Counted from the stretch's first letter, positions 29,714 through 55,165 are shown. The stretch is 64,000 bases of DNA from Methanoregulaceae archaeon (GCA_015660885.1 JACTUB010000004.1:62070-126069); one strand, 5' to 3'. Notes: generated by a model not told the origin, from the letters alone. Made by a program: numbers and translations.

Positions 29714-31658
29714 ATTTGAGGCATATCGCGGGCTTTTTGTTGCAGAATCCCGGGAGAACCATGAGAACCTGGTCAAGAACCTCCTGCTCCTTGAACGGGG
29801 CACCTATCAGGATGCCATTGACGAGATTTTCCGTTCCATCCACACGCTGAAAGGTGCATCTGCATCCATGGGTTTTTCCAACATGGAGCATCTCTGTCAC
29901 ACAATGGAGGACGTCTTCCAGCTTATCCGCAGTGGTGCAGCAGAAATTTCACCGGAATTGGTCAACCTGCTCCTTGCTTGTTCCGATCTCATTGAACGGA
30001 TGCTTGATGATATTGAAGCAGGAGGTGACTCTTCGTCAAAAAATCCGGCTGAACAGGTCAAAGCCCTTAAAGAATGGATTGAACAACGCGGCGGCATACC
30101 AAAAGTAAATACTGAGGCCTCTCTTAATATGGCAGAAGCAGGACAGCCAGCAGGGCCTGCAGGGGATACAAACACGGAGAATCTTCCGGAATACGAGATG
30201 CAAATCACCGTTGCAAGCGATTGCATAATGAAAGATGTGCGTGCCATGCTTGCCCTCGGAAATTTAAAATCGCTGGGGACTATTCTTTCTGTTAACCCGA
30301 CCATTGAGGCGATTGATGAAGGGAAGTTTGACAGCAGGCTTGAGCTCGTTATCGCAAGTGATGCCGGGGAGGTGGCGTTAAAAACTGCTGCTTCAGGGAC
30401 CGAGATTACTGAAGTTGTTATCCGTCCTGCAAAAAAACCGGCAACCATGACACCGGTTGAGAGCACCGAGAGCTCAAAAAAGGCAGAGACTGATAAAAAA
30501 CAATCCCAGTCTCCGGATAAAAGCCGGGAGATCAAAAATCTCAGGGTCGATATCCACCAGCTTGACCATATAATGAACCTGGTCGAAGATCTCGTCATTA
30601 ACCGGGGCAGGCTGAAACAGATCGCCGAAGAACACAAAATCAAGGAGATGGATGAAGCAATCGGCATGGTCGACCGGTCAGTCTCTGAACTTCAGAACCT
30701 GATGATGAATATCAGGATGATACCATTGAATCATATCTTCAACCGCCTGCCACGGGTTGTCCGCGATGTTGCCCAGTACGACAGCAAAGAGGTTGAGTTC
30801 GTCATTGAAGGAGGGGAGACCGAACTTGACCGAAGCGTGATGGACGGACTCAATGATCCGTTGCTTCACCTGATCAGAAATGCGGTAAATCATGGGATTG
30901 AATCCCCTGACATCCGGGAAAAGGCCGGAAAGCCTCGGAAGGGGTATGTCAAGCTCTCTGCGCACCGTGACCGGGATAATGTTATCATAGAACTCATAGA
31001 TGATGGTGCGGGCATCAATGTCGACAAGGTCAAGGCAAAAGGGATTGAAAAGGGACTGATTAATCCTGATGTTGCCGAAACATTCACTACGGAACAGGCA
31101 ATTGACCTGCTATTTCAGCCCGGTTTCTCCACAGCCGATAAAATATCTGATATCAGCGGCAGAGGAGTCGGGCTTGATGTGGTTAAGAGATCCATAGAAG
31201 CGTTGAAGGGTACTATACGGGTGGAAACAACCACGGGTAAAGGAAGCCGGTTTGAACTGTTACTCCCACCGACGATGGCTATTGTCGATGTGATGATCGT
31301 CAGGATCAACGAAAAACGGCTTGGTATCCCCATCAGCAGCATTGTGGAAGTTGCTAATTTCCGGAGGAATGAAACCCACCAGATAGGAAAAGGCGAAGCG
31401 ATCCTGCTGCGTGACGAGGTCCTTCAGATCCTTCGGCTGGATGACATGGCAGGAGTTTCAAAGGCGAGTGAGATCCTCGTTGTTGTGCAATACCAGAAAC
31501 GGAAATGCTGTATTCCGGTGGATGTCGTTGAAGGCAAGCAGGAAGTTGTCGTGAAACCGCTGAGCGGTTTTATCGGGAATACCCGGGGCGTGAGCGGTAT
31601 CACCATTCTCGGTGATGGTGGTGTTGTACCCGTTATTGATGTAAATACCATAATATAG
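29706..31658 (+). CDS. cheA: Chemotaxis histidine kinase CheA
   Basis: FRSIHTLKG Hpt; HLIRNAVNHGIE, DDGAG, SGRGVGLDVV; C-terminal CheW-like domain; GTG start. Confidence 0.98.
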   Translation: MSEFEAYRGLFVAESRENHENLVKNLLLLERGTYQDAIDEIFRSIHTLKGASASMGFSNMEHLCHTMEDVFQLIRSGAAEISPELVNLLLACSDLIERMLDDIEAGGDSSSKNPAEQVKALKEWIEQRGGIPKVNTEASLNMAEAGQPAGPAGDTNTENLPEYEMQITVASDCIMKDVRAMLALGNLKSLGTILSVNPTIEAIDEGKFDSRLELVIASDAGEVALKTAASGTEITEVVIRPAKKPATMTPVESTESSKKAETDKKQSQSPDKSREIKNLRVDIHQLDHIMNLVEDLVINRGRLKQIAEEHKIKEMDEAIGMVDRSVSELQNLMMNIRMIPLNHIFNRLPRVVRDVAQYDSKEVEFVIEGGETELDRSVMDGLNDPLLHLIRNAVNHGIESPDIREKAGKPRKGYVKLSAHRDRDNVIIELIDDGAGINVDKVKAKGIEKGLINPDVAETFTTEQAIDLLFQPGFSTADKISDISGRGVGLDVVKRSIEALKGTIRVETTTGKGSRFELLLPPTMAIVDVMIVRINEKRLGIPISSIVEVANFRRNETHQIGKGEAILLRDEVLQILRLDDMAGVSKASEILVVVQYQKRKCCIPVDVVEGKQEVVVKPLSGFIGNTRGVSGITILGDGGVVPVIDVNTII

Positions 31659-38244: not shown

Positions 38245-38766
38245 TCATGATCTCACGGCATCGTCTGGTCTTGAGGCAGATTGATCTGCACGCAAGACTG
38301 CACTGTTCCGATCCTCTCGAACTGCCTGAAGAATTACCTGGCGGAGCTTGTTGAAATTCGTAGCTGAATTTCCTAATTTTTCAACGAATGAAACCTGCCC
38401 GAGCTGTTTTGCATCGTCCTCATACATAGCGACCCGGAACAAAACAAAATACACAAAGGGGATCCTCCCTCCTTTGGCCCGGACATTCCTCAGGAGCTCG
38501 ATCCCTTTCTCCTCTTTGTTGTTATAGTCGGTAACGATTACGTCATAGCATATATACCTCATTTTATTCATCGCTTCTTCGACAGACAGCGATGTATCAA
38601 CCATCATTTCCCCGTCCCTGTCAAGGTACATACAGATCAGGTTAGCCAGTGCCGGAGTATCATCGACATAAAGTACTGATATTGTTCTGGTATCACCGGT
38701 GTCTGGACCAGACCCTGAAAAAGGAGGGGTGGTGGGAAGTGTTTCCGATCCGTTCCACGTTACCAT
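38245..38766 (-). CDS. Stand-alone atypical receiver-domain protein
   Basis: ISVLYVDD...VIVTDY...VEK. Confidence 0.8.
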   Translation of the reverse strand: MVTWNGSETLPTTPPFSGSGPDTGDTRTISVLYVDDTPALANLICMYLDRDGEMMVDTSLSVEEAMNKMRYICYDVIVTDYNNKEEKGIELLRNVRAKGGRIPFVYFVLFRVAMYEDDAKQLGQVSFVEKLGNSATNFNKLRQVILQAVREDRNSAVLRADQSASRPDDAVRS

Positions 38767-38793
38767 CGACAGTATCCCCGTATCCTTAAATTA

Positions 38794-39396
38794 TTATGCT
38801 GCGACTTCCCCCGTCTCAAGGGTTGTCATATCCAGCTTGACGCTCTCATCCGTTACAAGCCGCTTGATATCGATGAGGATCAGGAGTTCATGTGCATCCC
38901 GGTCCTTGATCCTGATCTTCTTTTTGATAATCCCGATGATGGCAGAATTGTTCTGTTCCACCATTGACGTACTGGTATCTACCGCAGAACGATCAAAGGT
39001 CGTCACCGAAGATACATTATCAACCATGATGCCGGTTTTGGATTCCGTGATGCTGTCGTCGAGAACGATTATCCGGCTGTTTTCATCGGTAGCTCCTGGT
39101 TGCCGGGTAATGTTCAAGCGTTCCTTCAGGTCGATTATTGTAGTTATTTCACCTCGTAAGTCAATTATTCCCTTGATATATGCAGGGGTATCGGGAAGCT
39201 GGGTTATTGTTTTGTACTCAACAACTTCCCTGACATTGAACAGGTCAACGGCAAAGTGTTCTTTGCCCAGCAGGAACTCCACGACCTGAACCGTGTTTGA
39301 ACCTGATTCCAGTCCTCCCTGCACAGCTCCTCTGCTGACGCGCTTTGCGGAAACCGGGAGGGGATTTCCGGTTTTTCCATTCGTATTCGGTTGCAT
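38794..39396 (-). CDS. cheW: Chemotaxis coupling protein CheW (copy 1)
   Basis: VVEFLLG, IKGIIDLRGEI; start set at ATG 39396 after GAGG. Confidence 0.93.
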   Translation of the reverse strand: MQPNTNGKTGNPLPVSAKRVSRGAVQGGLESGSNTVQVVEFLLGKEHFAVDLFNVREVVEYKTITQLPDTPAYIKGIIDLRGEITTIIDLKERLNITRQPGATDENSRIIVLDDSITESKTGIMVDNVSSVTTFDRSAVDTSTSMVEQNNSAIIGIIKKKIRIKDRDAHELLILIDIKRLVTDESVKLDMTTLETGEVAA

Positions 39397-39420
39397 GATC
39401 AGACCTCGCAAAGACTGCGT

Positions 39421-42400
39421 TTACGCGGCTCGCGCCGTGCTGGAGGACCCGCCTTTGGAGATCCGGTCGATAGTAACGGGTGATTCCTCGCCACTGTCTG
39501 CTGCGAAAGCATCCTCAGAAGCACTGTCATCAGAACCTGCCTTGATCCTGAATTTTGAGACCTCTTTTGTTACCTGGTCAGCAATGACGGTCACATTCTG
39601 GACTATCTTGGTGATCTGGTCGATCGCTGCAGAAGATTCCTCGCTTGCTGCTGCCGAGTCGGTTGCCTCCTTTGCGGTATCATTGACAAGTGCGTTGACC
39701 TCGTTCACGCTCGCAGTCACTTCCTCGACAGAAGCAGCCTGTTCTTCTGCAGATGCCGCCACGTCATTGATATTCCTGTTGATCTCATCGATTGAGGCAA
39801 CAATCTTGTTGAACACTTCAAGGGTCTGGGACAGTGCGACTCCGCCTTCCTTAACTTCACCACTTGACTTTTCAACGTTCTCCACTGCACGCTGTGTCTG
39901 TTTCTGGAGATCACCGATCATGAGGCGGATTTTCGCTGCAGAGTTCTCAGATTCTTCAGCCAGTGATTTAACTTCGGTTGCTACAACGGCAAACCCGCGG
40001 CCCGCCTCACCAGCACGGGCTGCTTCAATGGCTGCGTTCAGGGCAAGCAGGTTGGTCTGATTGGCAAGGTTGGCGATGAGAACTACGATATCCCCGATCT
40101 TGTCCATCTGGGATTTGATATCGAGGATGATCTCGTTGACTTCTGTTGAAGACTTGGTTATCCCGACCATTCCCTTATCTGCCTTGGAGGCAAGGTCCGA
40201 TCCCGTCTGGGACAGTTCCTCGGATTTCTTTGCGATCTGGGCAACAGCTTCTGCCTTTGTCGCAACTTCCTGGACTGTGGTTGACAGGTCTTCCATTGCC
40301 TTGAGGACCTGCTTGATTCCCTCACCGCTCTTTTCAGCATTCAGGCTTACGGCACCGGCATTCTTGGCGATCTGGGCTGAGCCGGCCGATACTTCTTCGA
40401 CGCTTGCAGTGGCTTCCTGTGCTCCCGCGGAAAGCTGGTTTATCTGCTGGTTCACCTTAAGAAGTGCCTTGGAGACCTGGACACCGACATTGTTCAAAGA
40501 TTTCTTGAATTTGGTAAAGTCTCCCTGTACCTGGAGGCGGTTGTCATACCGTGCGGTAAAGTCAGCCTTTGCATAAGTGTCAGCGACCCTCATTGCCTCG
40601 TTAAGCGGCCCGGTGACCGCATCAAGGGTCTCATTTACCCCCTCAATGATCTTCTGGTATTCCCCCTGGTGCCGTGCCGCATCAGCACGGGTGGCAAGTT
40701 TTCCTGCCACTGCTGCATCGGATAGCATATTTGCGTCTTTTGTCAGGTTCTGAAGCGCGTCAAATGTCCTGATAAATGACGGTACTAAGCGGTCTCCCTC
40801 CGATCGTTTTGCAATCTTGCGGTACACGTCGGCTTCTGACAGGTCACCGTTACTGATCCTGACAAGGGATTCCGTCACATGATTGACCCGTTCCCTGACC
40901 AGATTCACTGACATCTTGATATCGGCAAAGACGCCCATATAGTTCCCCTCAACGCCTTTTGAATGGTCATTGACGGCCATCCGCTTGAGAACTTCGCTTG
41001 CTTCGATGAGCCCGCCAAGACCGTCGATACACTGGTTTAAGTTGTTCTTGATCTCGTTGAAATCGCCCTTGTACTGGTCGGTGATCTTTGCCGGGATATC
41101 CCCTTTGCTGATACGGTCCATGTACTCGGCGGCAACATTGAGCGGTCCGATGACCGAGTCGAGCGTATTGTTGACACCTTCAATGATCTTCCTGAAGTCG
41201 CCCTGGTGCTTGGATGCATCGGCACGGACATCGAGTTTACCATCCACTGCAGCGACCGAGAGCATCTTTGCGTCCCTGACAAGCAGGTTGACCGCGTCGA
41301 TGCACTGGTTTAAGTTGTTCTTGATCTCGTTGAAATCGCCCTTGTACTGGTCGGTGATCTTTGCCGGGACATCCCCCTTGCTGATCCGGTCCATGTACTC
41401 GGCAGCCATGTTCAGCGGGCCGATGATCGCATCAAGCGTGTGGTTGACCCCTTCGATGGTCTTCCGGAAGTCTCCCTGGTGCTTGGATGCATCGGCACGG
41501 ATATCGAGTTTGCCTTCAACCGAACCTGCTGCTAACGTCTGCGTATCCCTGACAAGCAGGTTGATTGCATCGATACACTGGTTTAAGTTGTTCTTGATCT
41601 CGTTGAAGTCGCCCTTGTACTGGTCGGTAATTTTTGCCGGGACATCCCCCTTGCTGATCCGGTCCATGTACTCGGCAGTCATATTCAGCGGGCCGATAAT
41701 CGCATCGAGTGTGTTATTGATGCCTACCACAATTTCTTTATATCCTCCATTGAATTTGTCCGCTTTGCCCCGGACATCCAGTTTGCCATCTGCCCCCGCC
41801 TCGGTGAGCATCTTGGTTTCGGTGACAAGCCCCTGAAGCGAGCTCACCGTGTTCATAAGTGCCGGAGTAATCTCGTCCTGGGGGTCCTTTGCCATGAGCA
41901 TAACATTCAGGTCGCCATCAGCGATCTTTTTCATGGAGCCAACCACATTCTTCTGGAGATCCTCTGAGAACATGTCCATCGTGACTGCCATCTCACCGAT
42001 CTCATCCTTACGGGACAACTTCATCCGGTGACCAAGATGGCCTTTGCTGAGTTCGTCAAGATTCCGTTTGACATCATCAATCGGGCCGGTAATGCTCTTT
42101 GAGAGGTAGAGGGCCAGTACAACTCCTGCAATGACGCCAAAGACAGTTGCAATGATCATCAATAAGGTTGCGGTCGCAGTTGCGTCAGCAGTGTCCTTGG
42201 CAAGTTTTTCCGATGCCGTAAAAGTACTCGTAACAAGCGTCTTAAGGGCTGCAAGAGTATCGGTCCGTGCCATAATAACTGGACTGCTTGCTGCAAGACC
42301 CTCATCGACTGCTTTCATGTCGTTTGCATCAGCATCCTTCTGGAGTTTCTGGTAGCCTGCCTGCATATCTGACCAGGACGCATCGAATTTTGCCAGTGTC

Positions 42401-42735
42401 GCCTTGTCTCCATCCGACATGGGCCGTGCACGGAATTCTTTCATCTGGTCATTGATAGTCGCTACCTGGGCACTTAGCGAAGCCCCGGTTGCCTGCCGGT
42501 CTGACGGGACATAAATATACCGGTAAACATCTCCCCGCATCTTTTCCATGGCCGCATTTGCCGTAGCCAGATTATCGGCCGAAACCATTTTTTCATTATA
42601 CATCACATCCTGGTTTGCTTTTGCATTCTGGAGATTTACGTAACCCAATGCTGCAACTGCAACAAGGATAAGCAGAACTACAAGAAACCCACCGAGGAGT
42701 TTTTTCCCGATTTTCATGTCATCAACAAACTTCAT
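39421..42735 (-). CDS. Membrane methyl-accepting chemotaxis protein (4HB sensor, poly-HAMP)
   Basis: Two TMs flanking a four-helix sensor; HAMP arrays; [27 protein letters not shown] tip; start set at ATG 42735. Confidence 0.95.
41017..41835 (-). repeat. Three tandem 273-bp (91 aa) intragenic HAMP-pair repeats
   Basis: I/V-I-GPLN unit starts at 41700, 41427 and 41154, exactly 273 bp apart. Confidence 0.9.
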
Positions 42736-42969
42736 TTCTTTCGCCACCGTTTTTGAATAACCATAAATTTTTAAATGCCTGCGGAACCGGATTATAATCC
42801 AGTGTCCCGTCAATGTTTGTCCTGCAGTCAATGCAATCAGAAACCATGTCAGTTCCTGACAGCTGGTCGTTAAGATCCGGCCAGCTTGTGTTTAATTCCG
42901 TGCTGGTTCTGGTTTTTCCCATGTTCATCTCCATTTTACCTGTTTGACAAATATCCCGTAGTAAGCCGG

Positions 42970-46313: not shown

Positions 46314-46907
46314 TCATTTATTTTTCCTGACATTTCTCAGGGATTCCTTTAAAATTTCGTTACACCCGTCAAAAAGGGGGGGGCCGTGTCCAAAATATAT
46401 GGACCGGATATCTCTGCTGCAGAGGGTTTCCAGTGCACTGATGAATTCCGGTTCGTACGTACCATCAGTGGTTCGGATCACAAGGGGCGTATCCCCGGAA
46501 AAAAGGACACCCTCCTGCCAGCAGTAAAGGCAGATCGAATCATTACTGTGTCCGGGAGTAGAGATAATTTCAAAATCCCTGTCACCCACTCTTACATTTT
46601 CCCCCCCTTTTAGTATAACATCCACTCCCTCAAGAAAAGGAGAGGCAGCACGAACAACAGGATTGAACATGTCACAGATAAGCGGCAGGAGCGTTACATG
46701 ATCATAATGGCTGTGGGTGAGAATTACCTGCTCTACTCTTTTTTTACCAACCCCTGTTGAAGCTGCCATAAGTCCGGTAAGGATTGCCGGGTCCCTCCCG
46801 GTATCGATGAGCGTGTTCATGTCAGAAAGGGCATTCCATGTCCCGGTAACGAGGTAAACGTTGGAAGTGTATTGCGTTCCTTTTGTAAAAAGGTTAAGGA
46901 TTTTCAT
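46314..46907 (-). CDS. Metallo-beta-lactamase-fold hydrolase
   Basis: THSHYDH, TPGHS, FSGDT and FGHG metal-ligand motifs. Confidence 0.92.
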   Translation of the reverse strand: MKILNLFTKGTQYTSNVYLVTGTWNALSDMNTLIDTGRDPAILTGLMAASTGVGKKRVEQVILTHSHYDHVTLLPLICDMFNPVVRAASPFLEGVDVILKGGENVRVGDRDFEIISTPGHSNDSICLYCWQEGVLFSGDTPLVIRTTDGTYEPEFISALETLCSRDIRSIYFGHGPPLFDGCNEILKESLRNVRKNK

Positions 46908-47521
46908 TGTTGTGCGGAAATTTTTTTAAAGATCTGGGCATTGGCTGCAACCGGTTCAAAATAGCGTTCCATTTCGGCAGGTAATTTCTGGGTCTGTTCG
47001 GTGATAAGGAAACACCCGTCATCAAGGGCATCATAAAACATCCTGTATACCTTAAGCCTCTCCTCATCATTGAAGTGGAGCAGGACATTTTTACAGACAA
47101 TAAGACCCATGCTCTGGCGGACTGGCTGGAATGTCAGCAGGTCGTGTTTTTCAAAGATCAGTCTCCTCCTGATCTCTTCTGCAATTTTCCAGTTGCCGGG
47201 TTTTTGTTCATCAGGAGAAAAATATGTTGAAAATATATCCTGAGGGATCCTTTCCAGTTCCTGTCTTGCGTAACTTCCTTCTTCGATTATCTTTGCAAAT
47301 AAGTTACTGATATCAATATCTGTACAATAGATCTTCACATTCCGGAAGATCATCGGTCCCATATTCTCACGAAGCATGATAGCAATGGTATACGGTTCCT
47401 GCCCCATTGCACACCCGGCACTCCAGATATTTATATACCTCCTGCTGCCGATTACCGGGAGAATAAACTCACGGATCATTTCAAGGGTCTGGTAGTCGCG
47501 GAAGAAGTAAGTAAAGGCCAT
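46904..47521 (-). CDS. cheR: CheR-type SAM methyltransferase lacking the N-terminal domain
   Basis: TYFFRD at residue 4; WSAGCAMGQEPYT, TDID and CKNVLLHF motifs. Confidence 0.88.
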   Translation of the reverse strand: MAFTYFFRDYQTLEMIREFILPVIGSRRYINIWSAGCAMGQEPYTIAIMLRENMGPMIFRNVKIYCTDIDISNLFAKIIEEGSYARQELERIPQDIFSTYFSPDEQKPGNWKIAEEIRRRLIFEKHDLLTFQPVRQSMGLIVCKNVLLHFNDEERLKVYRMFYDALDDGCFLITEQTQKLPAEMERYFEPVAANAQIFKKISAQQ

Positions 47522-47666: not shown

Positions 47667-48320
47667 TTACCGGGGACTATATGCATCATAATATGCCCGC
47701 GTGGTTTCCAGGTTTATCCGGAAGCGGTTAATGCTGTCTGCGGTAATAATGATGTACATGCCGGTATTTGAGGTCTGGACAACACGGTACGACGTTTCCC
47801 TGTTCAGGATCTCTTCGCCCTCAATAATGCCGCCGGTATCTGCATAACAAAGGGCAATTCGGAGATCACTGGGGTGATGTTCTGCAATGACCGTGGTGTT
47901 GATTACCCATACCGGGTAAGGAACGGAGAAAACCTGCGTCAGACCACCCCGTGTATCTTCAATAAAGGCAAACTGCACCCACTCCTGGTTCCGCCAGGGT
48001 ATTTCTGATGCCCCGAATGTCTCCATGTGGTCCGGCATTTTATACACCGGATAGGTGAAGGGTTTGTCAGTATAATAGATGCGATACGGGGGAGGGCTGG
48101 ATTTTGTAACAACCGGTGTTTCGACAGGAATCGGGCTAACATCTGGTAGCATTGTCGTGATAGAAGCAGGGAATTGAGTGACTGTTCCTGCAGGCTGCAC
48201 TGCAGTTCCAGCAGAAACCGGAGCTTTTGATAAAGCCGGAGGATTTGCTAATACTGCTACGAAGACTACGATCGCGATGCCTGCGATGAGGGCAAGAATA
48301 TCACCAGTCTCCACGTACAA
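47667..48320 (-). CDS. Membrane-anchored exported hypothetical protein (paralog of 15637-16407)
   Basis: N-terminal TM, Pro/Thr linker, GLTQVFSVPYPVW motif. Confidence 0.75.
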   Translation of the reverse strand: MYVETGDILALIAGIAIVVFVAVLANPPALSKAPVSAGTAVQPAGTVTQFPASITTMLPDVSPIPVETPVVTKSSPPPYRIYYTDKPFTYPVYKMPDHMETFGASEIPWRNQEWVQFAFIEDTRGGLTQVFSVPYPVWVINTTVIAEHHPSDLRIALCYADTGGIIEGEEILNRETSYRVVQTSNTGMYIIITADSINRFRINLETTRAYYDAYSPR

Positions 48321-48519
48321 TACTTGACAAGATGTTATAAAAAAGGTATAGGGATCCTTGTAGTTTTCAGGTTAATCAGGGATGTGGTTTGTCAACCATT
48401 CCTACGCGAAAATTCAAATGAATTTTTCTTTTTTGAAAAAAAGGCAGGATTTTTGTTCTAGAGAACCGATAAGTATTAAAGTATATAGTCATAAATAAAA
48501 AAATATATCGGGTGGTACA

Positions 48520-49416
48520 ATTCCAGTTATTACCTTTTCTCATCATAAAGGGGGTACGGGTAAGACAACATCTTGCCTGAATGTTGCCGGCTTTTGTCAT
48601 CAGGCCGGGAGAAAGGTACTGGTTGTTGACTGCGATCCTCAGGCGAATGCAACTGCCGGTCTCGGTGTCGATCCCAGTACTTCTAACAAAGACATGTATG
48701 ATATCTTCATGAGCGGGATCGATGATTTCCCGAATGTCACGCTGCAGGAAATCATCAGAAAAACTGCTTCCGGTATTGACCTGGCACCTTCGCACCTTGA
48801 CATGGTGGGTGCTGAACCATATATCTATCATGCAAAATTCCCGACGGGTATTCTTAAAGAAGCACTCTCCGGTATTAAAAACCAGTATTCGTATATCTTC
48901 ATCGATACGCCACCGAGCCTGGGGCAGTTCGTAATCAACGGACTCTTTGCAGCGGATCATGTCATTGTGACCCTTGACTCAGGATCGTTTGCGCTCAACG
49001 GAATAGCGACCCTCTCGATGATATTTGCTGATATAAAAGACGTCCTTGGTAAAGAGATCGTCCCTGATATGGCTATTGTCAGCCGCTGGGGTGAGGGGTT
49101 ACTTCAGTCGCGTTCCCGCGCCGAAGAAGAGGGCAGGCGGGATATTTTCACCAAGCTCCGGAACATCTTTTATAAGCCCCCCGAGCCGTCTCCTGAAGAC
49201 AGAAAGACGGCAGAAGAGAATAAAAATGAACAGGAAAGGCTGATTGCCACTCTCAACGAGATCAAACGCAAGTTCCCGAGCGTGTATACTGTTCCCTACT
49301 CTCCTGCGGTATACGAAGCCCAGAGACGTGGCATGCCGATTTCGCATTTTGCACCGGACAGCGCCGCCGGAATTGCATATAAGACCATAGCAGAAGAGGT
49401 TATGAGATGGAGCTAA
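48520..49416 (+). CDS. ParA/MinD-family ATPase (probable ATT start; the ORF track starts at an internal Met at 48694)
   Basis: In-frame HHKGGTGKTT deviant Walker A at 48541-48570; VDCDPQAN; IDTPP Walker B. Confidence 0.88.
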   Translation: MPVITFSHHKGGTGKTTSCLNVAGFCHQAGRKVLVVDCDPQANATAGLGVDPSTSNKDMYDIFMSGIDDFPNVTLQEIIRKTASGIDLAPSHLDMVGAEPYIYHAKFPTGILKEALSGIKNQYSYIFIDTPPSLGQFVINGLFAADHVIVTLDSGSFALNGIATLSMIFADIKDVLGKEIVPDMAIVSRWGEGLLQSRSRAEEEGRRDIFTKLRNIFYKPPEPSPEDRKTAEENKNEQERLIATLNEIKRKFPSVYTVPYSPAVYEAQRRGMPISHFAPDSAAGIAYKTIAEEVMRWS

Positions 49417-51398
49417 AAGAGATCGAAGATGTATTAAAGAAAACCAGTGAAGGGAATTTTTCTGTCCGCATCGACGAGAATACCGTGGATGCCGGATTGA
49501 AACCAGTTGCACAGATGCTGAACCAGACACTTGCCAGGGCAGCGCTGGCACAGGAATTAAAGCATCGTGCTGACGTGATGATCCAATACAATCCAATGGC
49601 AATCGCCATATTGAGAAAGGATAAAACCAGGATTCATATAAACAAAGCCTATGAAACAATCTGGCGCGGAACCCGTGAAGAACTCTTAAAAAAGAAACTC
49701 ACTGATTTTGACATTACCATCCTTTCCGGGGAACATTTTTACTCCTGTTTCGAGACAAAAAAACTTGCAGTCACCGACTGCCTGGTAACGTTCCCGGACG
49801 GCATCAAGAAATACCTGAAGCTCAATGCCATTCCTATTCTCACCAAAACCGGCGAAGTGGATGGCGCTTTCTACATATGGGTCGACTACACGGAGCTGCA
49901 CGAAAAGATGGATGCAGTAAAAAAAGTTGAGCAGCGGGTCGACAGAATCATCCAGGAGAACCCGTTCCCTCTCTTCACAATCGATCCTGACCTCAATGTG
50001 AAAATTTCCAACATGTCGTTCCTGTCGCTTACCGGTTATTCCCGGGAGCAGGTAATATCCCTGTCGATGAAAAACTTCAAATACCTCAAGAACAAGGGAG
50101 GTACCGTCGAGGGGACAATAAAATCCAAGAAACGCAGCCAGGGTGAATCCGTCATAGAATTTCCCAGTGGCACGTTCAATCTTGAATGGTATTATATACC
50201 CCTGCTTGACGAAGACAGCAACGTCGATTCCCTGCTGGTCGTGTTCAACAACATCACCGACCGGATTAAAAAAGAGAGAGAAGTCAAGCAGCTGATGGAG
50301 GAATCGCAGAAAAAAGCAGAGGCGCTCTCGGCAAGTGCCGTAGTGCTGGAAAGCGGGCTTGAAAGAATTGCAAAAGGAGACCTTACGTTCCATGCCCCGC
50401 TTGTTGACGGTGATCCGTTAGCCAAGCTGAAAAAGGATTACAATGCTTCGATCGATTCAATCAGGAAGGTTATCGAGGAGCTGGAAAAATCCATAAAACA
50501 GATTGAAGTGACTACCCAGGAAACAAGCCGCGGCACGACAGAAATCTCCAAATCAACCGAACAGGTTGCTATCGGTACACAGAAATCTGCTGATGGTGCA
50601 AAAAAACAGCTTAACGAGGTTGAAAAGGTCGGCAAAGAGATCTCCGATCTCTCCGCTTCCATTGAAGAAATTGCCAGCACGTCTCAGGATCTGATGAGTC
50701 ACGCGCAGAAGGCAGCGATGGAAGGAAACCAGGCATCCGAACTGGGCAAGATAGCAACTGCCAAGATGACGATGGTGGAGAAAATTGCGGGTGAGAGTGT
50801 AAGCGAGATCACGGCACTCAACGAGCGGATGAAAGAGATCTCCAATATCGTGAAGATGATCGCTGACATATCCAGCCAGACTAACCTCCTTGCATTGAAT
50901 GCAGCAATCGAGGCTGCGCGGGCCGGCGAGCATGGGCGCGGGTTTGCAGTTGTCGCGGGTGAAGTCCGAAACCTCGCCGGTGAGTCCAAATCCGCAACAA
51001 ACCATATCGAGAGTCTCATCGGTTCCATTCAGGACAACAGCGATAAAACCGCTGCCGCGATTAAAAGCTCGTATACTGAAATTCAGGCCGGAATCGAGAG
51101 TGTAAATAAGACCATCGAAGCCTTAAACCGGATTATTGCCGAGTCGAATGTCGTTGCTCAGGGAGTGAGCGAGATCACGAAGGCGACCGAGGATCAGGCG
51201 GAGGCGACGACCCGCGTGGTTCACGGGATGGAACAATCCAACGCCATTACACGAGAGAATCAGGGACGGATGGAGGATATGGCAGCCCTTGCCGAGGAGA
51301 CCAGCGCCTCGACCGAAGAGATCGCAAGCGCATCTGCCGAGCTTGCAGAGCTTGCAAACCGGCTGAAAAAGTTAATGGAACAGTTCAGACTCAGGTGA
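49407..51398 (+). CDS. Soluble (TM-less) MCP: HAMP-like, PAS x2, signalling domain
   Basis: No hydrophobic TM segment; two PAS repeats; [27 protein letters not shown]. Confidence 0.94.
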   Translation: MELKEIEDVLKKTSEGNFSVRIDENTVDAGLKPVAQMLNQTLARAALAQELKHRADVMIQYNPMAIAILRKDKTRIHINKAYETIWRGTREELLKKKLTDFDITILSGEHFYSCFETKKLAVTDCLVTFPDGIKKYLKLNAIPILTKTGEVDGAFYIWVDYTELHEKMDAVKKVEQRVDRIIQENPFPLFTIDPDLNVKISNMSFLSLTGYSREQVISLSMKNFKYLKNKGGTVEGTIKSKKRSQGESVIEFPSGTFNLEWYYIPLLDEDSNVDSLLVVFNNITDRIKKEREVKQLMEESQKKAEALSASAVVLESGLERIAKGDLTFHAPLVDGDPLAKLKKDYNASIDSIRKVIEELEKSIKQIEVTTQETSRGTTEISKSTEQVAIGTQKSADGAKKQLNEVEKVGKEISDLSASIEEIASTSQDLMSHAQKAAMEGNQASELGKIATAKMTMVEKIAGESVSEITALNERMKEISNIVKMIADISSQTNLLALNAAIEAARAGEHGRGFAVVAGEVRNLAGESKSATNHIESLIGSIQDNSDKTAAAIKSSYTEIQAGIESVNKTIEALNRIIAESNVVAQGVSEITKATEDQAEATTRVVHGMEQSNAITRENQGRMEDMAALAEETSASTEEIASASAELAELANRLKKLMEQFRLR

Positions 51399-51401
51399 AA
51401 A

Positions 51402-51872
51402 ATGGCCTCAACGGTTGAAGTAGTAGAATTTGTGCTTGGAGGCGAGCGCTACGCTCTCGATATACAACTTGCACGGGAGATTGTCGAAATGATCCAGATC
51501 ACCCCCATTCCGCGTGCACCGTCTTATATTTCAGGTGTAATAAATCTTCGCGGAGAGATCACCAACATCATGAACCTCAATACCCTTCTCGACTTACCAC
51601 ACCAGGAGATACGGGATAATCAGAAGATTATCGTTCTGGTGCCGGAAGCGGTATCCGGCAGCAATGTCGGCATCATCGTCGATGATGTAATAGGAGTATT
51701 ACAGGTTGCAGAAGCGGAGATCGAACATCTGGGCGACGGGCTCGCATCTGAAGTCTCAGGTTTTGTCAAAGGCATCATCAAGGTGAAACGGGATGAGTCC
51801 GACAAAGAGAATACATGCCTTATTATCTGGATTGATATGCAGAAAGTAGTTGAAGACGTGGCAAAAAAGTGA
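51402..51872 (+). CDS. cheW: CheW (copy 2)
   Basis: VVEFVLG, ISGVINLRGEI, VGIIVDDV. Confidence 0.95.
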   Translation: MASTVEVVEFVLGGERYALDIQLAREIVEMIQITPIPRAPSYISGVINLRGEITNIMNLNTLLDLPHQEIRDNQKIIVLVPEAVSGSNVGIIVDDVIGVLQVAEAEIEHLGDGLASEVSGFVKGIIKVKRDESDKENTCLIIWIDMQKVVEDVAKK

Positions 51873-51923
51873 ACCTCATGAAAATCAAATGGCAATACAC
51901 CAGTGCAGGATAATTGACGGGAG

Positions 51924-54272
51924 ATGGAGATGACGGAAAGACCAGGGAGAAAAGCGTTATTCACCGGGGCTGATACCCCGGTACTACAAATAAGTCCTTC
52001 AGAAGAGAGTGCAACTATCAGAAAATCTGAACAAACGATCGCGGAACTCAGGCAACGGCTTGACATGATGGTCAGCAAAAATCCTGTCCCTATGCTCCTT
52101 ACCACGCCAGCATTCTCAATCGTTGAGGCAAATGCCGCTTATATCCAGATGAGCGGCATTAAAGAGAGTGATCTCCTGAAGACGAATCTTAAAAATTTCA
52201 AAATTCTCAGTCAGAAGGGAGAGGGGGCAAAGGTTGCGATCCAGGAGAAGCGGCGTTCATTCGGAGAAGTGATCGTAGAACTGCCTTCCGGAATACGAAT
52301 TCTGGAACAGTACTGTATTCCGATTATAGGACCCGACCAGGTACTATCCAGCCTGCTCTTCATCTACAATGACACAACAGAGAAGAAGAAAAGGAGTGAT
52401 GAGATTGAGCAGCTCAAGCACCGTTCCGACATGATTGTTCAGCAGAACCCGATCCCTATCCTGATGACCAACCCGGGTTTTGCTGTCATTGAGGCAAACA
52501 CGGCCTATATAAAAATGAGCGGTATTCCCCGTGAGCGTGTCATTGGGATGAGCCTTCGTGAGGTCAAAATTCTCGAGCAAAAGGGAGAAGGTGCACGGGT
52601 GGCTTTAGAGAAAAAGCAACGTGTATTCGGTGAAGTGACCGTTGAGCTCCCCAGCGGAACCCACATCCTCGAGCAGTATGTAATACCGATCCTTGACGCC
52701 AAAAATGAGATCTCCCATCTCCTTTTTGTCTACAATGAGATCACCGAACAGCGCAGGAGCCACCAGGACCTCCAGAAGAAAATGGATGAGGTTGCCCTCC
52801 TTAAACTGCGCTCTGATATCATTGTCAACCAGAATCCCATGCCAATCATGCTGATGACCACATCATTCAAGATTATGATGGTGAATGATGCGTATATCTC
52901 CATGACCGGTCTTGCAAAAGATCGGCTCATCGGTATGAGTGCCAAAGATTTCAAGATTCTCGAACAACACGGTGAAGGGCTTAAAAAAGTGCTGCAGGAA
53001 AAGAAAAGAAGTTTCGGCGAGATCAAAATTGAATTCCCCACAGGTGTCCATATCCTCAACCAGTGGGGAATTCCGATGGTTGATCCGAAAGGAAATCTTC
53101 AGACTATCGTCTGTGTATATGATGATATTACGACACAGCGCGAACAGGAATCGAAGATCAAGGCGATGATGGACGAGGCACAGACAAAAGCTGATCTCCT
53201 GACGGCAAGTGCATCTGAACTCCAGATGGCGCTCTCAAAAATTGCCTCCGGTGATCTTACGTACCAAGTGAGCATAGATGATGCCGATCCGCTGGTCAGG
53301 CTCAAAGCGGATTATAACGGGGCTGTAGGTTCGATACGGATCGTCTTATCCGATTTGGTTCAGGCGATGGTCAGGCTTGATGCCACAATCAATGACACCC
53401 TCAAGAGCACGGAAGAGATTGCAAAGGCCACGGAACAGGTTGCGATCTCGTCCCAGAAGGCAGCCGATAATTCAAAATTGCAGATCACGAATGTTGAAAA
53501 GATCTCGACTGATATTTCAGACATTTCGGCGTCAATTGAGGAGATAGCGAGCACATCTCACGAAGTGATGACGCACGCTGACAAGGCGTCAAAAGAAGGT
53601 GCACAGGCAGCAGAGATCGGCAAGGTTGCAACCACCAAGATGCAGAATGTCGAGAAGATCTCCAAACAGAGTGTTGATGATATCACCGCGTTGAACGAGC
53701 AGATGCGGGCAATCTCAAAGATCGTGAATCTTATCACTGATATTGCCAACCAGACCAATCTTCTGGCACTCAATGCGGCGATCGAGGCGGCCAGGGCCGG
53801 TGAACACGGACGCGGTTTTGCCGTGGTTGCAGGAGAGGTCAAGAACCTTGCCGGGGAATCCAAGAAAGCGAGCAGCCAGATCGAAACCCTTATAAAATCC
53901 ATTCAGGCAAAGAGCGAACAGACCTCGACATCCATGAAAAACTCCTTTGAAGAGATCAAAACGGGAATTGACAGTGTCAACAAGACCGTCGAATCGCTCA
54001 ACCTGATCATATCTGAGGCAAATATTGTTTCGCAGGGCGTCAACGAGATCACGAAGGCAACAGAAGACCAGGCACAGGCAACCAACAAACTCCTGACAGG
54101 CATCGAGTCTGTATCCTCCCTGACAAAGGACAACCAGCAGCGGATGGAAGATATGGCTGCCCTTGCCGAAGAGACCAGCGCCTCGACGGAGGAGATCGCG
54201 AGTGCGTCGGCAGAGCTCGCAAAGATGGCAGAGAACAGTCGCAAGATGATGGAGAAATTCCATCTTAATTGA
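51924..54272 (+). CDS. Soluble (TM-less) MCP: PAS x3 plus signalling domain
   Basis: Three similar PAS repeats; conserved MCP tip; no TM segment. Confidence 0.94.
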
Positions 54273-54302
54273 GGCGGAAAAGGCCCTGCCTATTCATTTT
54301 TT
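54273..54302 (+). terminator. Weak hairpin plus T-run after the second soluble MCP
   Basis: AGGC...GCCT followed by TTTTTT. Confidence 0.3.
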
Positions 54303-54370
54303 GCCTGTGATGACCCAATGCTGTTTCCCTAGTACTACGGGCAAAAACAGGGATAATCTCAGGATTTCGT

Positions 54371-55165
54371 ATGGATAGTTTTCAAGCACTGAAAAAATTC
54401 ATTGAACAGACACTGGGAATCCAGTGTTCAAATTATAAAGAAGATTACATAAAGCGGCGCCTTCTCTCACGGATGCGATCGACCGGTAGCGCGACATATG
54501 AAGATTATCTCGGATATCTGAAAGCGAACCCGCCGGAACTGGAGAGCCTGCGTAATGCACTTACCATCAACGTTACTGAATTTTTCCGGGATAACGATGT
54601 CTATGAGTTTATGAGAAAAGATATCTTACCCGCGTTACTCAAACAAAGAAAACGGGTTCGGATATGGTGTGCCGGGTGTTCAACCGGAGAAGAGCCATAT
54701 TCCATCGCCATGATACTCTCGGAACTCCTGGCACATAACCCGGGTATTTCTGCCCAGATCATTGCAACAGATATTGACAAAGTTGTTCTTGCAAAAGCTC
54801 AGGAGGGTATCTATTCCTCAAAAGCGATGGTCAAATTATCTGAAACGCAAATCCGCCGCCATTTCACCAAGCTCCCTGATGGCAATTTCCAGGTCAAATC
54901 ACACCTTAAAGAACTGATACGGTTCCGCCCTCATGACCTGATGAGCGGTGTCCCTGTTTCCCAATGGCTTGATCTCATTACCTGCCGGAACGTAACAATC
55001 TATTTCAACGAGAAACAAAAGGACGAACTGGCAAGAATGTTCCATGGGGCACTGGTATCCAAGGGGTTCTATATTATGGGTAAAACGGAATATCTTGGAC
55101 GAACACTGGAGAATCTGTTCGAATCCTATAATTCCCTCCAGAAAATCTTTATTAAAAAGGATTGA
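54371..55165 (+). CDS. cheR: Chemotaxis methyltransferase CheR, full length
   Basis: YIKRRL N-domain; LTINVTEFFRD, WCAGCSTGEEPYS and CRNVTIYF motifs. Confidence 0.96.
   Translation: MDSFQALKKFIEQTLGIQCSNYKEDYIKRRLLSRMRSTGSATYEDYLGYLKANPPELESLRNALTINVTEFFRDNDVYEFMRKDILPALLKQRKRVRIWCAGCSTGEEPYSIAMILSELLAHNPGISAQIIATDIDKVVLAKAQEGIYSSKAMVKLSETQIRRHFTKLPDGNFQVKSHLKELIRFRPHDLMSGVPVSQWLDLITCRNVTIYFNEKQKDELARMFHGALVSKGFYIMGKTEYLGRTLENLFESYNSLQKIFIKKD

What the first reader, a model, noticed from the sequence alone, without database searches (positions are those of the whole stretch)
48520..55165. ParA-led operon of soluble PAS chemoreceptors: candidate archaeal system for positioning cytoplasmic chemosensory arrays
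Seen: one strand carries a ParA/MinD ATPase (its stop overlaps the next ATG by 10 nt), a TM-less PASx2 MCP, cheW (3-nt gap), a TM-less PASx3 MCP and a full cheR, with no parB, cheA or cheY in the unit. Established: in bacteria, ParA-like ATPases encoded in che operons position receptor arrays (PpfA with the soluble receptor TlpT in Rhodobacter; ParC/ParP in Vibrio), and MinD homologs affect array placement in Haloferax. Inference: this module builds and segregates a cytoplasmic array that signals through the single CheA at 29706, with its own CheW and CheR. I know of no characterised methanogen example.
Basis: partly seen in the sequence, partly recalled or inferred. Interest (0 to 1): 0.8.

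Follow-up and report, generated by a model that had tools for sequence, protein, structure and literature searches.

The report
ParA operon for tagged soluble chemoreceptors
A Methanoregula methanogen encodes a ParA-type positioning ATPase in one operon with membrane-free chemotaxis receptors. One of those receptors starts with a short, strictly conserved docking-type peptide, so this is most likely the archaeal version of the bacterial PpfA-TlpT machine that places and hands down cytoplasmic receptor clusters.

Summary
The genes parA (48520-49416), MCP1, cheW, MCP2 and cheR lie on one strand with the stated overlaps. Both MCPs lack transmembrane segments, and the unit holds no parB, cheA or cheY.

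- The ParA is single-copy. It occurs in 79 of 151 Methanomicrobiales genomes, almost all of which also have CheA.
- In 20 of 20 sampled loci it is followed by a soluble MCP or a PAS-CheW fusion.
- It falls in a clade of che-operon ParAs from archaea and bacteria. That clade is separate from Soj, plasmid ParA, ParC and MinD.

New here is a conserved N-terminal peptide, (R/K)PGRKALF. It resembles the ParA-activating N-terminus of ParB. It occurs once in this genome, on MCP2 and not on the parA-adjacent MCP1, and it is present in every parA locus examined.

Corrections:
- cheR is the genome's only full-length cheR, not a private copy.
- parA starts at ATT.
- Hamer et al. (2010) already listed PpfA homologues in che operons of four methanogens.
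- Two Soj DNA-contact basic residues are Tyr here, so the positioning matrix (nucleoid or membrane) is open.

Verdict: a new, uncharacterised member of a known kind.

The parts
48510..48516 (+). Shine-Dalgarno-like GGGTGGT, 3 nt upstream of the ATT start
   Evidence: Read from the sequence. Relatives have GGTGAT or GGTGAG at the same place.
48520..49416 (+). parA: a Soj-fold deviant Walker A ATPase of the che-operon clade, 298 aa, with an ATT start
   Evidence: Pfam AAA_31 6e-45. Closest PDB sequences are Soj/ParA at 1e-24 to 1e-25. AF2 pLDDT 89.6, with best folds Soj and HpSoj. Clade placement. It is the only gene of this type in the genome.
48547..48567 (+). Deviant Walker A motif KGGTGKT (signature Lys10, Lys15), preceded by the clade-specific His-His
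   Evidence: K10, G11, G12, G14, K15, T16, T17, D37, D39 and D129 are invariant in a 40-sequence alignment.
49090..49275 (+). Clade-specific insertion at the position of Soj helix alpha8. It contains the amphipathic helix DIFTKLRNIFYK (49141-49176).
   Evidence: Alignment. AF2 predicts helices at residues 195-206, 208-217 and 225-251, with low pLDDT (56-70) over residues 191-220. Hydrophobic moment 0.64.
49291..49323 (+). VPYSPAVYEAQ, which replaces the Soj motif IPRNVRLAEAPS. Two DNA-patch basic residues are Tyr here.
   Evidence: Alignment. The Soj patch residues are defined in PMC6393308.
49407..51398 (+). MCP1: a soluble receptor (two PAS regions, HAMP, MCP signalling domain), 663 aa, without the N-terminal tag
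51402..51872 (+). cheW, one of three cheW genes in the genome
51924..54272 (+). MCP2: a soluble PAS-repeat receptor, 782 aa, which carries the tag
51939..51962 (+). N-terminal tag RPGRKALF (residues 6-13 of MCP2), followed by an Ala/Pro/Gly-rich linker. It is the predicted peptide that binds and activates ParA.
   Evidence: It is the only match in a six-frame scan of the whole genome. It is present in 20 of 20 loci from the order and in 70 of 80 ParA places as exact GRKALF codons, with unlinked sites at chance rate. It also occurs in bacterial and other archaeal parA loci. In 26 of 26 aligned tags R, A and F are invariant.
54371..55165 (+). cheR, the only full-length CheR (CheR_N plus SAM domain) in the genome
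47667..48320 (-). Conserved neighbour: a membrane-anchored protein with a Pro/Thr linker and a beta-rich domain, no family match. It is divergent from parA here. In most relatives it lies downstream of cheR.
   Evidence: Homologue present in 16 of 20 loci, and also kept in parA-less Methanoregula.
29706..31658 (+). cheA, the single CheA of the genome and the presumed kinase for all four receptors

Best explanation
This is a PpfA-TlpT-type cargo-positioning module.

ParA is an ATP-dependent dimerising Soj-fold ATPase that is translated from an ATT codon. I infer that it binds the N-terminal RPGRKALF peptide of the soluble receptor MCP2. The peptide sits on a flexible Ala/Pro/Gly-rich tether and acts like the N-terminus of ParB: it docks on the ParA-ATP dimer and stimulates hydrolysis.

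MCP2 would co-assemble with MCP1, CheW and the single CheA into a membrane-free receptor lattice, so the lattice becomes the ParA cargo. Cycles of binding and hydrolysis on a cellular matrix would then space the clusters and give each daughter cell one. The matrix is most likely the nucleoid but is not established.

Shown here:
- gene content and intact catalytic motifs;
- clade membership;
- strict co-inheritance of ParA with the tag and with soluble receptors.

Inferred:
- the physical ParA-tag contact;
- ATPase stimulation;
- the existence of a separate cytoplasmic array;
- the matrix.
For: 1. Synteny. parA is directly followed by a soluble MCP or a PAS-CheW gene in 20 of 20 loci from four families. 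The same holds in another family of the phylum, in a further Halobacteriota genome, in a Euryarchaeota MAG and in a Hadarchaeota MAG. It also holds in bacteria, a Pseudomonadota MAG and Ca. Scalindua.
2. Phyletic pattern. 79 of 151 genomes of the order have the ParA, and all but G125 (82% complete) also have CheA; in G149 the CheA match is weak. 31 CheA-positive genomes lack the ParA.
3. The tag. Its only occurrence in this genome is the MCP2 N-terminus. Of 80 ParA places, 70 have exact GRKALF codons downstream on the same strand, 57 of them 37-84 nt after parA. The 47 unlinked sites are spread equally over ParA-positive and ParA-negative genomes, which is the chance rate.
4. Tag carriers. The tag sits on MCPs, or in four genera on PAS-CheW fusions. 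Both are array components.
5. Natural loss. Four Methanoregula species without parA keep HK-cheW-cheR-hyp217 at the same locus but lack both soluble MCPs and the tag.
6. Tree. The che-linked ParAs form one clade (support 87/72), apart from a clade holding Soj, ParC, plasmid ParA and archaeal Soj-like proteins (99/94) and apart from MinD/FlhG.
7. Catalytic residues are invariant and the fold is Soj-like.
8. Literature. TlpT is the suggested activator of PpfA and has a basic N-terminal extension. Activators of ParA/MinD ATPases generally work through such peptides (PMC7993993; PMC10241942).
Against: - No interaction, localisation or expression data exist for any archaeal member.
- Two of the four Soj DNA-patch positions (Pro-Lys/Arg-Ser and Val-Lys/Arg-Leu) are Tyr in the whole clade. 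The alpha8 position is replaced by an insertion. Nucleoid binding, which defines PpfA's mechanism, is therefore not supported by sequence.
- All four MCPs, including the membrane one, have signalling domains that align without gaps. The soluble receptors could simply join the membrane array.
- No PpfA sequence was available, so membership of PpfA's own clade is untested. PpfA is reported with KGGVGKT (PMC9178275), whereas this clade has KGGTGKT.
- The 98-nt MCP2-cheR spacer contains a T-run, so cheR may not be co-transcribed.
Confidence: 0.65

Rival explanations
1. A membrane- or pole-directed variant, with ParC/ParP or MinD logic. ParA would bind the membrane or a polar landmark through the conserved internal amphipathic helix DIFTKLRNIFYK. 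It would recruit the tagged soluble receptors to, or next to, the membrane array near the archaellum, rather than spacing clusters on the nucleoid.
For: - An amphipathic helix is conserved at the insertion across the clade.
- Two canonical DNA-patch basic residues are lost.
- In four genera the tag sits on PAS-CheW fusions, which resembles ParP.
- All MCPs share one signalling-domain length, so mixed arrays are possible.
- The first-stage note e1-5266233 proposed a membrane helix.
Against: - The helix is internal and has low model confidence.
- In the two bacterial members with a confirmed che context it is reduced to short ISIFD or PGFW stretches.
- There is no C-terminal MinD-type membrane-targeting sequence; the protein ends ...EEVMRWS.
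- The Hadarchaeota member has a very basic stretch, RRKRKKSRAKRRRR, at this site, which fits nucleic-acid binding at least as well.
- The clade is separate from ParC and from MinD/FlhG.
Confidence: 0.15
2. The ParA is an assembly or signalling factor rather than a positioning motor. It would nucleate, size-limit or gate the soluble-receptor lattice, or couple it to the cell's ATP state, through the tag without any spatial matrix.
For: - ParA and the tag are strictly co-inherited, but there is no sequence evidence for a matrix.
- ParA is translated from a weak ATT start, which suggests sub-stoichiometric amounts.
Against: [quoted passage not shown] The catalytic and dimerisation residues are fully conserved, as in motors.
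Confidence: 0.12
3. The ParA is an ordinary chromosome or plasmid partition ATPase that merely lies next to che genes.
For: Database names say 'chromosome partitioning protein' or 'Soj'. The best PDB matches are Soj.
Against: - There is no parB in the locus or in relatives.
- It is absent from 72 of 151 genomes of the order and nearly confined to CheA-positive ones.
- It lies outside the Soj/plasmid ParA clade.
- Plasmid ParAs are at most 30% identical.
- The linkage to the tag is exact.
Confidence: 0.03
4. The parA is a decaying, untranslated gene because it lacks a canonical start codon.
For: There is no ATG, GTG or TTG before the P-loop. Many database entries are truncated 240- or 266-aa calls.
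Against: - Purifying selection acts on the 58 codons before the first ATG: 18 codons differ only synonymously, 10 change the residue, and differences by codon position are 9/2/24.
- An SD-like element sits at the right distance.
- The same situation is found in several Methanoregula species, including M. boonei, where the NCBI protein starts at the aligned ATC.
Confidence: 0.03

Closest known systems
PpfA-TlpT of Rhodobacter (Cereibacter) sphaeroides cheOp3
   Same: [quoted passage not shown]
- The MCP has a basic N-terminal extension and is thought to act as the ParB analogue.
- The cargo is a cytoplasmic receptor cluster (PMC7993993; PMC6829392; PMC11407121).
- Hamer et al. 2010 scored the Methanoregula boonei, Methanosphaerula, Methanoculleus and RC-I genes as PpfA homologues in che operons.
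   Different: - This is an archaeal host with an archaellum and a single CheA.
- The receptors carry PAS sensors and have a signalling module of about 310 residues, consistent with class 44H (my estimate). TlpT is 36H.
- In this genome the tag is on the second MCP, not the adjacent one.
- Walker A is HHKGGTGKT here against the reported KGGVGKT.
- Half of the Soj DNA patch is missing and there is an alpha8 insertion.
- PpfA's place in the tree could not be tested.
ParC-ParP of Vibrio, Aeromonas and Pseudomonas (F6 che clusters)
   Same: A ParA-like ATPase in a che operon. Its partner is an array protein with a CheW-like domain. In four Methanomicrobiales genera the tag sits on PAS-CheW fusions.
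   Different: - Aeromonas ParC groups with the Soj/plasmid ParA clade, not with this clade.
- It is 30% identical over the aligned part, against 37% for Aeromonas Soj.
- ParC serves membrane arrays at a HubP pole.
- This window has no ParP-like gene.
Soj-Spo0J (ParABS)
   Same: The fold and catalytic motifs match. The tag (R/K)PGRKALF resembles the ParB N-terminal motif GLGRGLxALL/F that activates Soj; the ParB motif is quoted from my own knowledge. A 20-residue Spo0J peptide is sufficient for activation.
   Different: There is no ParB, parS or DNA-binding partner. The clade is separate. The IPRNVRLAEAPS motif is replaced.
MinD4 of Haloferax volcanii
   Same: An archaeal ParA/MinD-family protein that influences the placement of chemosensory arrays and archaella (listed in PMC11407121 Table 1).
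   Different: - MinD4 is MinD-type and not encoded with receptors.
- The MinD-like proteins of this genome are only 27-43% identical to the ParA over partial matches, and the four that could be placed in the tree fall in the outgroup with FlhG.
- No tag-bearing partner is known for MinD4.
McdA-McdB (carboxysome positioning)
   Same: An orphan ParA whose partner is part of a protein cargo and contacts it through a charged N-terminus. McdA is a good structural match.
   Different: The cargo is different, McdA has an SGGQGKT Walker A, and the partner is unrelated.

Membership tests
ParA/MinD superfamily, Soj-type (type Ib) ParA | Deviant Walker A KGGxxK[ST] with signature lysine, plus Walker A' and Walker B aspartates | tested here: met
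   KGGTGKT at residues 10-16, VVDCDPQ at 35-41 and IFIDTPP at 126-132. These residues are invariant in 40 homologues.
ParA/MinD superfamily, Soj-type (type Ib) ParA | Soj-like fold of about 250-300 aa without an N-terminal HTH | tested here: met
   AF2 pLDDT 89.6. Top Foldseek hits are Soj, HpSoj, ParA and TtSoj, E 1e-19 to 1e-23.
Chromosomal or plasmid ParABS | An adjacent parB or centromere-binding partner | tested here: not met
   No ParB domain in the window unit or in any of more than 25 related loci. A plasmid ParA used as a control does have an adjacent ParB.
Chromosomal or plasmid ParABS | Basic DNA patch (HpSoj K199/K227/K230/K247; BsSoj R189, R215, R218) | tested here: not met
   The positions aligned with K227 and K230 are Tyr (VPYSPAVYE). 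The alpha8 position is replaced by an insertion. Other basic residues could substitute; this was not tested.
PpfA-TlpT type array-partitioning system | An orphan ParA inside a che gene cluster, without parB | tested here: met
   Also scored as such for four methanogens by Hamer et al. 2010.
PpfA-TlpT type array-partitioning system | A soluble (transmembrane-less) MCP encoded with the ParA | tested here: met
   MCP1 and MCP2 have no hydrophobic segments. A soluble MCP or a PAS-CheW fusion is downstream in 20 of 20 loci.
PpfA-TlpT type array-partitioning system | The partner has a positively charged N-terminal extension that contacts or activates the ATPase | tested here: inconclusive
   A conserved basic N-terminal tag exists and tracks ParA exactly. 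Binding and activation cannot be tested with these tools.
PpfA-TlpT type array-partitioning system | The ParA binds the nucleoid non-specifically | not testable with these tools
   Sequence gives mixed signals. DNA-binding assays are needed.
PpfA-TlpT type array-partitioning system | Same ParA clade as R. sphaeroides PpfA | not tested
   No PpfA sequence could be obtained from the available collections. Eight bacterial genomes reached through chance loci had only Soj-like hits of about 31% identity.
ParC-ParP | ParA belongs to the ParC clade | tested here: not met
   Aeromonas ParC, identified by its che context, falls in the other clade.
ParC-ParP | A ParP partner with a CheW-like array-integration domain | tested here: not met
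   The window has none. Tag-PAS-CheW fusions exist in four related genera, which gives the same logic but not homology to ParP.
MinD | A C-terminal amphipathic membrane-targeting sequence and MinD-clade membership | tested here: not met
   The C-terminus is ...AEEVMRWS. The MinD-like paralogues of this genome and FlhG form the outgroup. An internal amphipathic helix exists whose role is unknown.

The most novel reading that the evidence does not exclude
A ParA subfamily that spans archaea and bacteria recognises one fixed 'luggage tag', (R/K)PGRKALF. The subfamily has the signature HHKGGTGKTT ... VPYSxxVYEAQ. Evolution has moved the tag between different array proteins: PAS-MCPs, poly-HAMP MCPs and PAS-CheW fusions. 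The subfamily has lost half of the Soj DNA patch and gained a conserved amphipathic helix at alpha8. It may therefore position cytoplasmic receptor lattices on a matrix other than the nucleoid, either the membrane or the lattice itself. That would be a mechanism distinct from PpfA's.
Probability: 0.25. Interest if true: 0.75.

Novelty: new member of a known kind. Interest (0 to 1): 0.5.

Why it matters
Nothing has been shown experimentally about how archaea place cytoplasmic chemoreceptor arrays. The only archaeal positioning ATPase studied for arrays is a MinD in Haloferax.

This locus gives a concrete, testable pair: ParA and residues 6-13 of MCP2. The same operon is present in Methanoregula formicica SMSP (L038). 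From memory, cytoplasmic arrays were imaged in that species by cryo-tomography (Briegel et al. 2015); the paper could not be read here.

The tag sequence also gives the ParA/MinD field a sharply defined partner peptide shared by archaea and bacteria. That is useful for specificity studies and for predicting cargo from sequence.

It corrects annotation as well. Many database entries for this ParA are truncated and lack the P-loop, because the start codon is non-canonical.

Tried and rejected
- Placing R. sphaeroides PpfA in the tree. No sequence was obtainable. Plasmid searches gave only ParAs of 30% identity or less. Eight bacterial genomes reached through chance loci had only Soj-like proteins. 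An Aeromonas chromosome filed among the plasmids did supply Soj, ParC and FlhG references.
- RNA-seq test of co-transcription.
- Reading Briegel et al. 2015 and Roberts et al. 2012. Neither is held, so statements from them are marked as memory.
- NCBIfam, to assign a ParA subfamily. All hits were far below their cut-offs.
- The control genomes of the genome search are named but not retrievable.
About half of the 80 listed loci were chance matches in bacteria, out of frame or in the middle of an ORF. It therefore gives no full census.
- Heptad class as an argument for a separate array. Rejected, because all four MCPs align without gaps.
- hyp217 as a ParB-like adaptor. Rejected, because it is a membrane-anchored, probably extracellular protein and is retained in parA-less species.
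- A literature search for the string GRKALF found no paper.

Full report
**What is there**

The + strand of 48520-55165 carries five genes:
- parA, 298 aa: AAA_31 E=6e-45, Walker A KGGTGKT;
- MCP1, 663 aa: PAS, PAS, weak HAMP, MCPsignal;
- cheW, 156 aa;
- MCP2, 782 aa: PAS repeats, MCPsignal;
- cheR, 264 aa: CheR_N plus the SAM domain.

The parA stop overlaps the MCP1 ATG by 10 nt. The gaps are 3 nt (MCP1-cheW), 51 nt (cheW-MCP2) and 98 nt (MCP2-cheR). Neither MCP has a hydrophobic segment, whereas the 4HB/poly-HAMP MCP at 39421-42831 has two.

**The start codon**

Between the in-frame TAA at 48496 and the P-loop there is no ATG, GTG or TTG. The mechanical ORF call (48694, 240 aa) lacks the Walker A motif. 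ATT at 48520 sits 3 nt after GGGTGGT.

Against the closest relative, the 58 codons before the first ATG show 18 synonymous-only and 10 non-synonymous codon differences. Differences by codon position are 9/2/24, so this stretch is translated.

Several Methanoregula species share the situation. NCBI proteins of relatives begin at the aligned ATT or ATC, while many metagenome calls are truncated to 240 or 266 aa.

**Genome context**

The organism is a Methanoregula (names). The window is C33:62070-126069 of a 2.52-Mb assembly that is 99.5% complete. A six-frame scan of the genome finds:
- one CheA (the gene at 29706), one CheB, one CheY, and one each of CheC, CheD and CheF;
- three CheW;
- four MCPs, of which three are soluble;
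- one full-length CheR, which is the one in this operon, plus a CheR at 46904-47521 that has only the SAM domain.

The module therefore does not have 'its own' CheR. It holds the system's only canonical one. All four MCP signalling domains align without gaps. Receptor length class therefore cannot separate a cytoplasmic array from the membrane array.

**Conservation**

The ParA is the only one of its type in the genome. The other P-loop relatives match at E>=1e-8. In an even sample of 151 genomes of the order it is present in 79, covering 18 of 33 genera, and is almost always single-copy. CheA is present in 109 of the same genomes. ParA-positive genomes lie within the CheA-positive set, except for one genome that is 82% complete.

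I fetched about 19 kb around 20 orthologues from four families and annotated them with the window's proteins:
- in 20 of 20, parA is immediately followed by a soluble MCP or a PAS-CheW gene;
- in 19 of 20, cheR follows;
- cheW is free or fused in most;
- in 16 of 20, a homologue of the membrane protein at 47667-48320 is also nearby.

The same linkage is found outside the order:
- another family of the phylum, about 48% identical: parA, poly-HAMP MCP, cheW, MCP, cheY, cheB;
- a further genome: parA, MCP, cheW, cheY, cheB, cheA, cheC, cheD;
- a Euryarchaeota MAG and a Hadarchaeota MAG;
- bacteria, namely a Pseudomonadota MAG and Ca. Scalindua rubra, both with parA, poly-HAMP MCP, cheW and so on.

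**The tag**

The N-termini of the downstream genes share a peptide, (R/K)PGRKALF, that starts 4-10 residues after the Met and is followed by a low-complexity Ala/Pro/Gly-rich stretch.
- In this window it is [15 protein letters not shown] at the start of MCP2 (51939-51962), not of MCP1.
- A six-frame scan of the whole genome finds this motif exactly once.
- It is present in 17 of 20 order loci in strict form and in the other three as IGRKALF, PGRQALF or LGRKALF.
- In the 151-genome sample, 70 of 80 ParA places have exact GRKALF codons on the same strand within 6 kb downstream. Of these, 57 lie 37-84 nt after parA. The Methanoregula cases lie at 2.5-2.9 kb, which is MCP2.
- The 47 unlinked sites are divided equally between ParA-positive and ParA-negative genomes and match the reversed-pattern control, so they are chance.
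- A scan of all species genomes for the longer pattern returned about 38 true N-terminal tags. Wherever upstream sequence was available, each lay next to a ParA. The rest were chance matches in bacteria.
- In four genera the carrier is not an MCP but a tag-PAS-CheW fusion.

The tag therefore marks array proteins and travels with this ParA.

It resembles the N-terminal motif of ParB that activates Soj, GLGRGLxALL/F; the ParB motif is quoted from my own knowledge. It also fits the general rule that activators of ParA/MinD ATPases work through a short basic N-terminal peptide. The same has been suggested for TlpT with PpfA (PMC7993993; PMC10241942).

**Natural loss**

Four Methanoregula species lack the ParA. 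At the syntenic locus they keep the PAS kinase, cheW, cheR and the membrane protein. They lack parA, both soluble PAS-MCPs and any GRKALF site. ParA and its tagged cargo are gained and lost together.

**Phylogeny and structure**

I built an ML tree of 44 ParA-type ATPases:
- the che-linked proteins and five of their database homologues;
- archaeal Soj-like proteins;
- a plasmid ParA that has a ParB;
- Aeromonas Soj, ParC and FlhG, identified by their contexts;
- this genome's MinD-like paralogues.

All che-linked proteins, archaeal and bacterial, fall in one clade (87/72). That clade is sister to a well-supported clade of Soj, ParC and plasmid ParA (99/94), and MinD/FlhG lie outside. It is also not ParC.

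The AF2 model is confident (pLDDT 89.6) and matches Soj structures best.

Clade signatures are HHKGGTGKTT, a (T/P)(L/V)D(S/P)G.FA stretch in place of the Soj PVQxEYYALEG stretch, and VPYSxxVYEAQ in place of IPRNVRLAEAPS. According to the HpSoj-DNA structure (PMC6393308), the last motif holds two of the four basic DNA-patch residues. Here they are Tyr. The third patch position, helix alpha8, is replaced by a 25-60-residue insertion with a conserved amphipathic helix, DIFTKLRNIFYK at 49141-49176, which has low model confidence. Whether the matrix is the nucleoid or the membrane is therefore open. This is the main uncertainty in the mechanism.

**Comparison with what is known**

The closest system is PpfA-TlpT.

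The association is not new as a catalogue entry. Hamer et al. 2010 list Ca. Methanoregula boonei, Ca. [quoted passage not shown]

No archaeal member has been characterised in the reviews and primary papers I read. The tag string appears in no searchable paper.

Earlier notes of this scan describe similar ParA-plus-tagged-receptor pairs in other genomes. They agree with this reading but are not independent evidence.

**Verdict**

The partner is specified as the MCP2 N-terminus, and several details are corrected. It is a new, uncharacterised member of a known kind of system, with a well-defined and testable docking peptide.

Noticed in passing
48496-48696: parA has no canonical start codon. ATT (or ATC/ATA in relatives) follows an SD-like GGTG motif. 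Many public gene calls for this family are therefore truncated to 240 or 266 aa and lack the P-loop.
   Followed up: yes
47667-48320 (-): A membrane-anchored protein with a Pro/Thr linker and a beta-rich domain, with no family match, is a conserved neighbour of the module (16 of 20 loci, usually after cheR). It is retained in parA-less Methanoregula, so it is probably linked to cheW-cheR rather than to ParA.
   Followed up: partly
46314-47521 (-): A CheR with only the SAM domain (205 aa) overlaps a metallo-beta-lactamase-fold gene. Neither was found beside parA in the 20 related loci.
   Followed up: partly
L213-L216 (Methanoregula genomes G076, G143, G071, G147): parA-less Methanoregula species have PAS-kinase, cheW, cheR, membrane protein at the syntenic site, flanked by several transmembrane MCP plus cheW pairs. 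The soluble PAS-MCPs are absent.
   Followed up: yes
L040:2194-4902, L041:9927-11561, L042:7077-8927, L043:6874-8925: In four genera of the family the tag-bearing protein is a tag-PAS-CheW fusion without an MCP signalling domain. This resembles ParP in logic.
   Followed up: partly
L061, L062, L064-L066, L072: In one uncultured family, contigs repeatedly end about 1 kb after parA, inside a repetitive poly-HAMP MCP gene. The parA-MCP linkage is therefore under-reported in fragmented MAGs.
   Followed up: no
L040:4976-9013 and L050:9879-14108: Very long soluble MCPs (1346 and 1410 aa) lie directly after parA, with long coiled or low-complexity regions between the tag or PAS domains and the signalling domain.
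   Followed up: no
L155:7770-8000: A Ca. Hadarchaeota MAG has the same ParA followed by MVEVVRKPGRKALFEG. Its ParA carries an extremely basic stretch (RRKRKKSRAKRRRR) at the insertion site.
   Followed up: no
L196/W01 (NZ_AP026896.1): A 4.94-Mb Aeromonas caviae chromosome is filed as a plasmid in the plasmid collection and is almost unannotated. I used it as a source of Soj, ParC and FlhG references.
   Followed up: yes
38245-42831 (-): A second receptor unit holds a membrane 4HB/poly-HAMP MCP (1136 aa), a cheW and a receiver-domain gene. A third soluble MCP plus cheW pair lies on contig C17 of the genome.
   Followed up: partly
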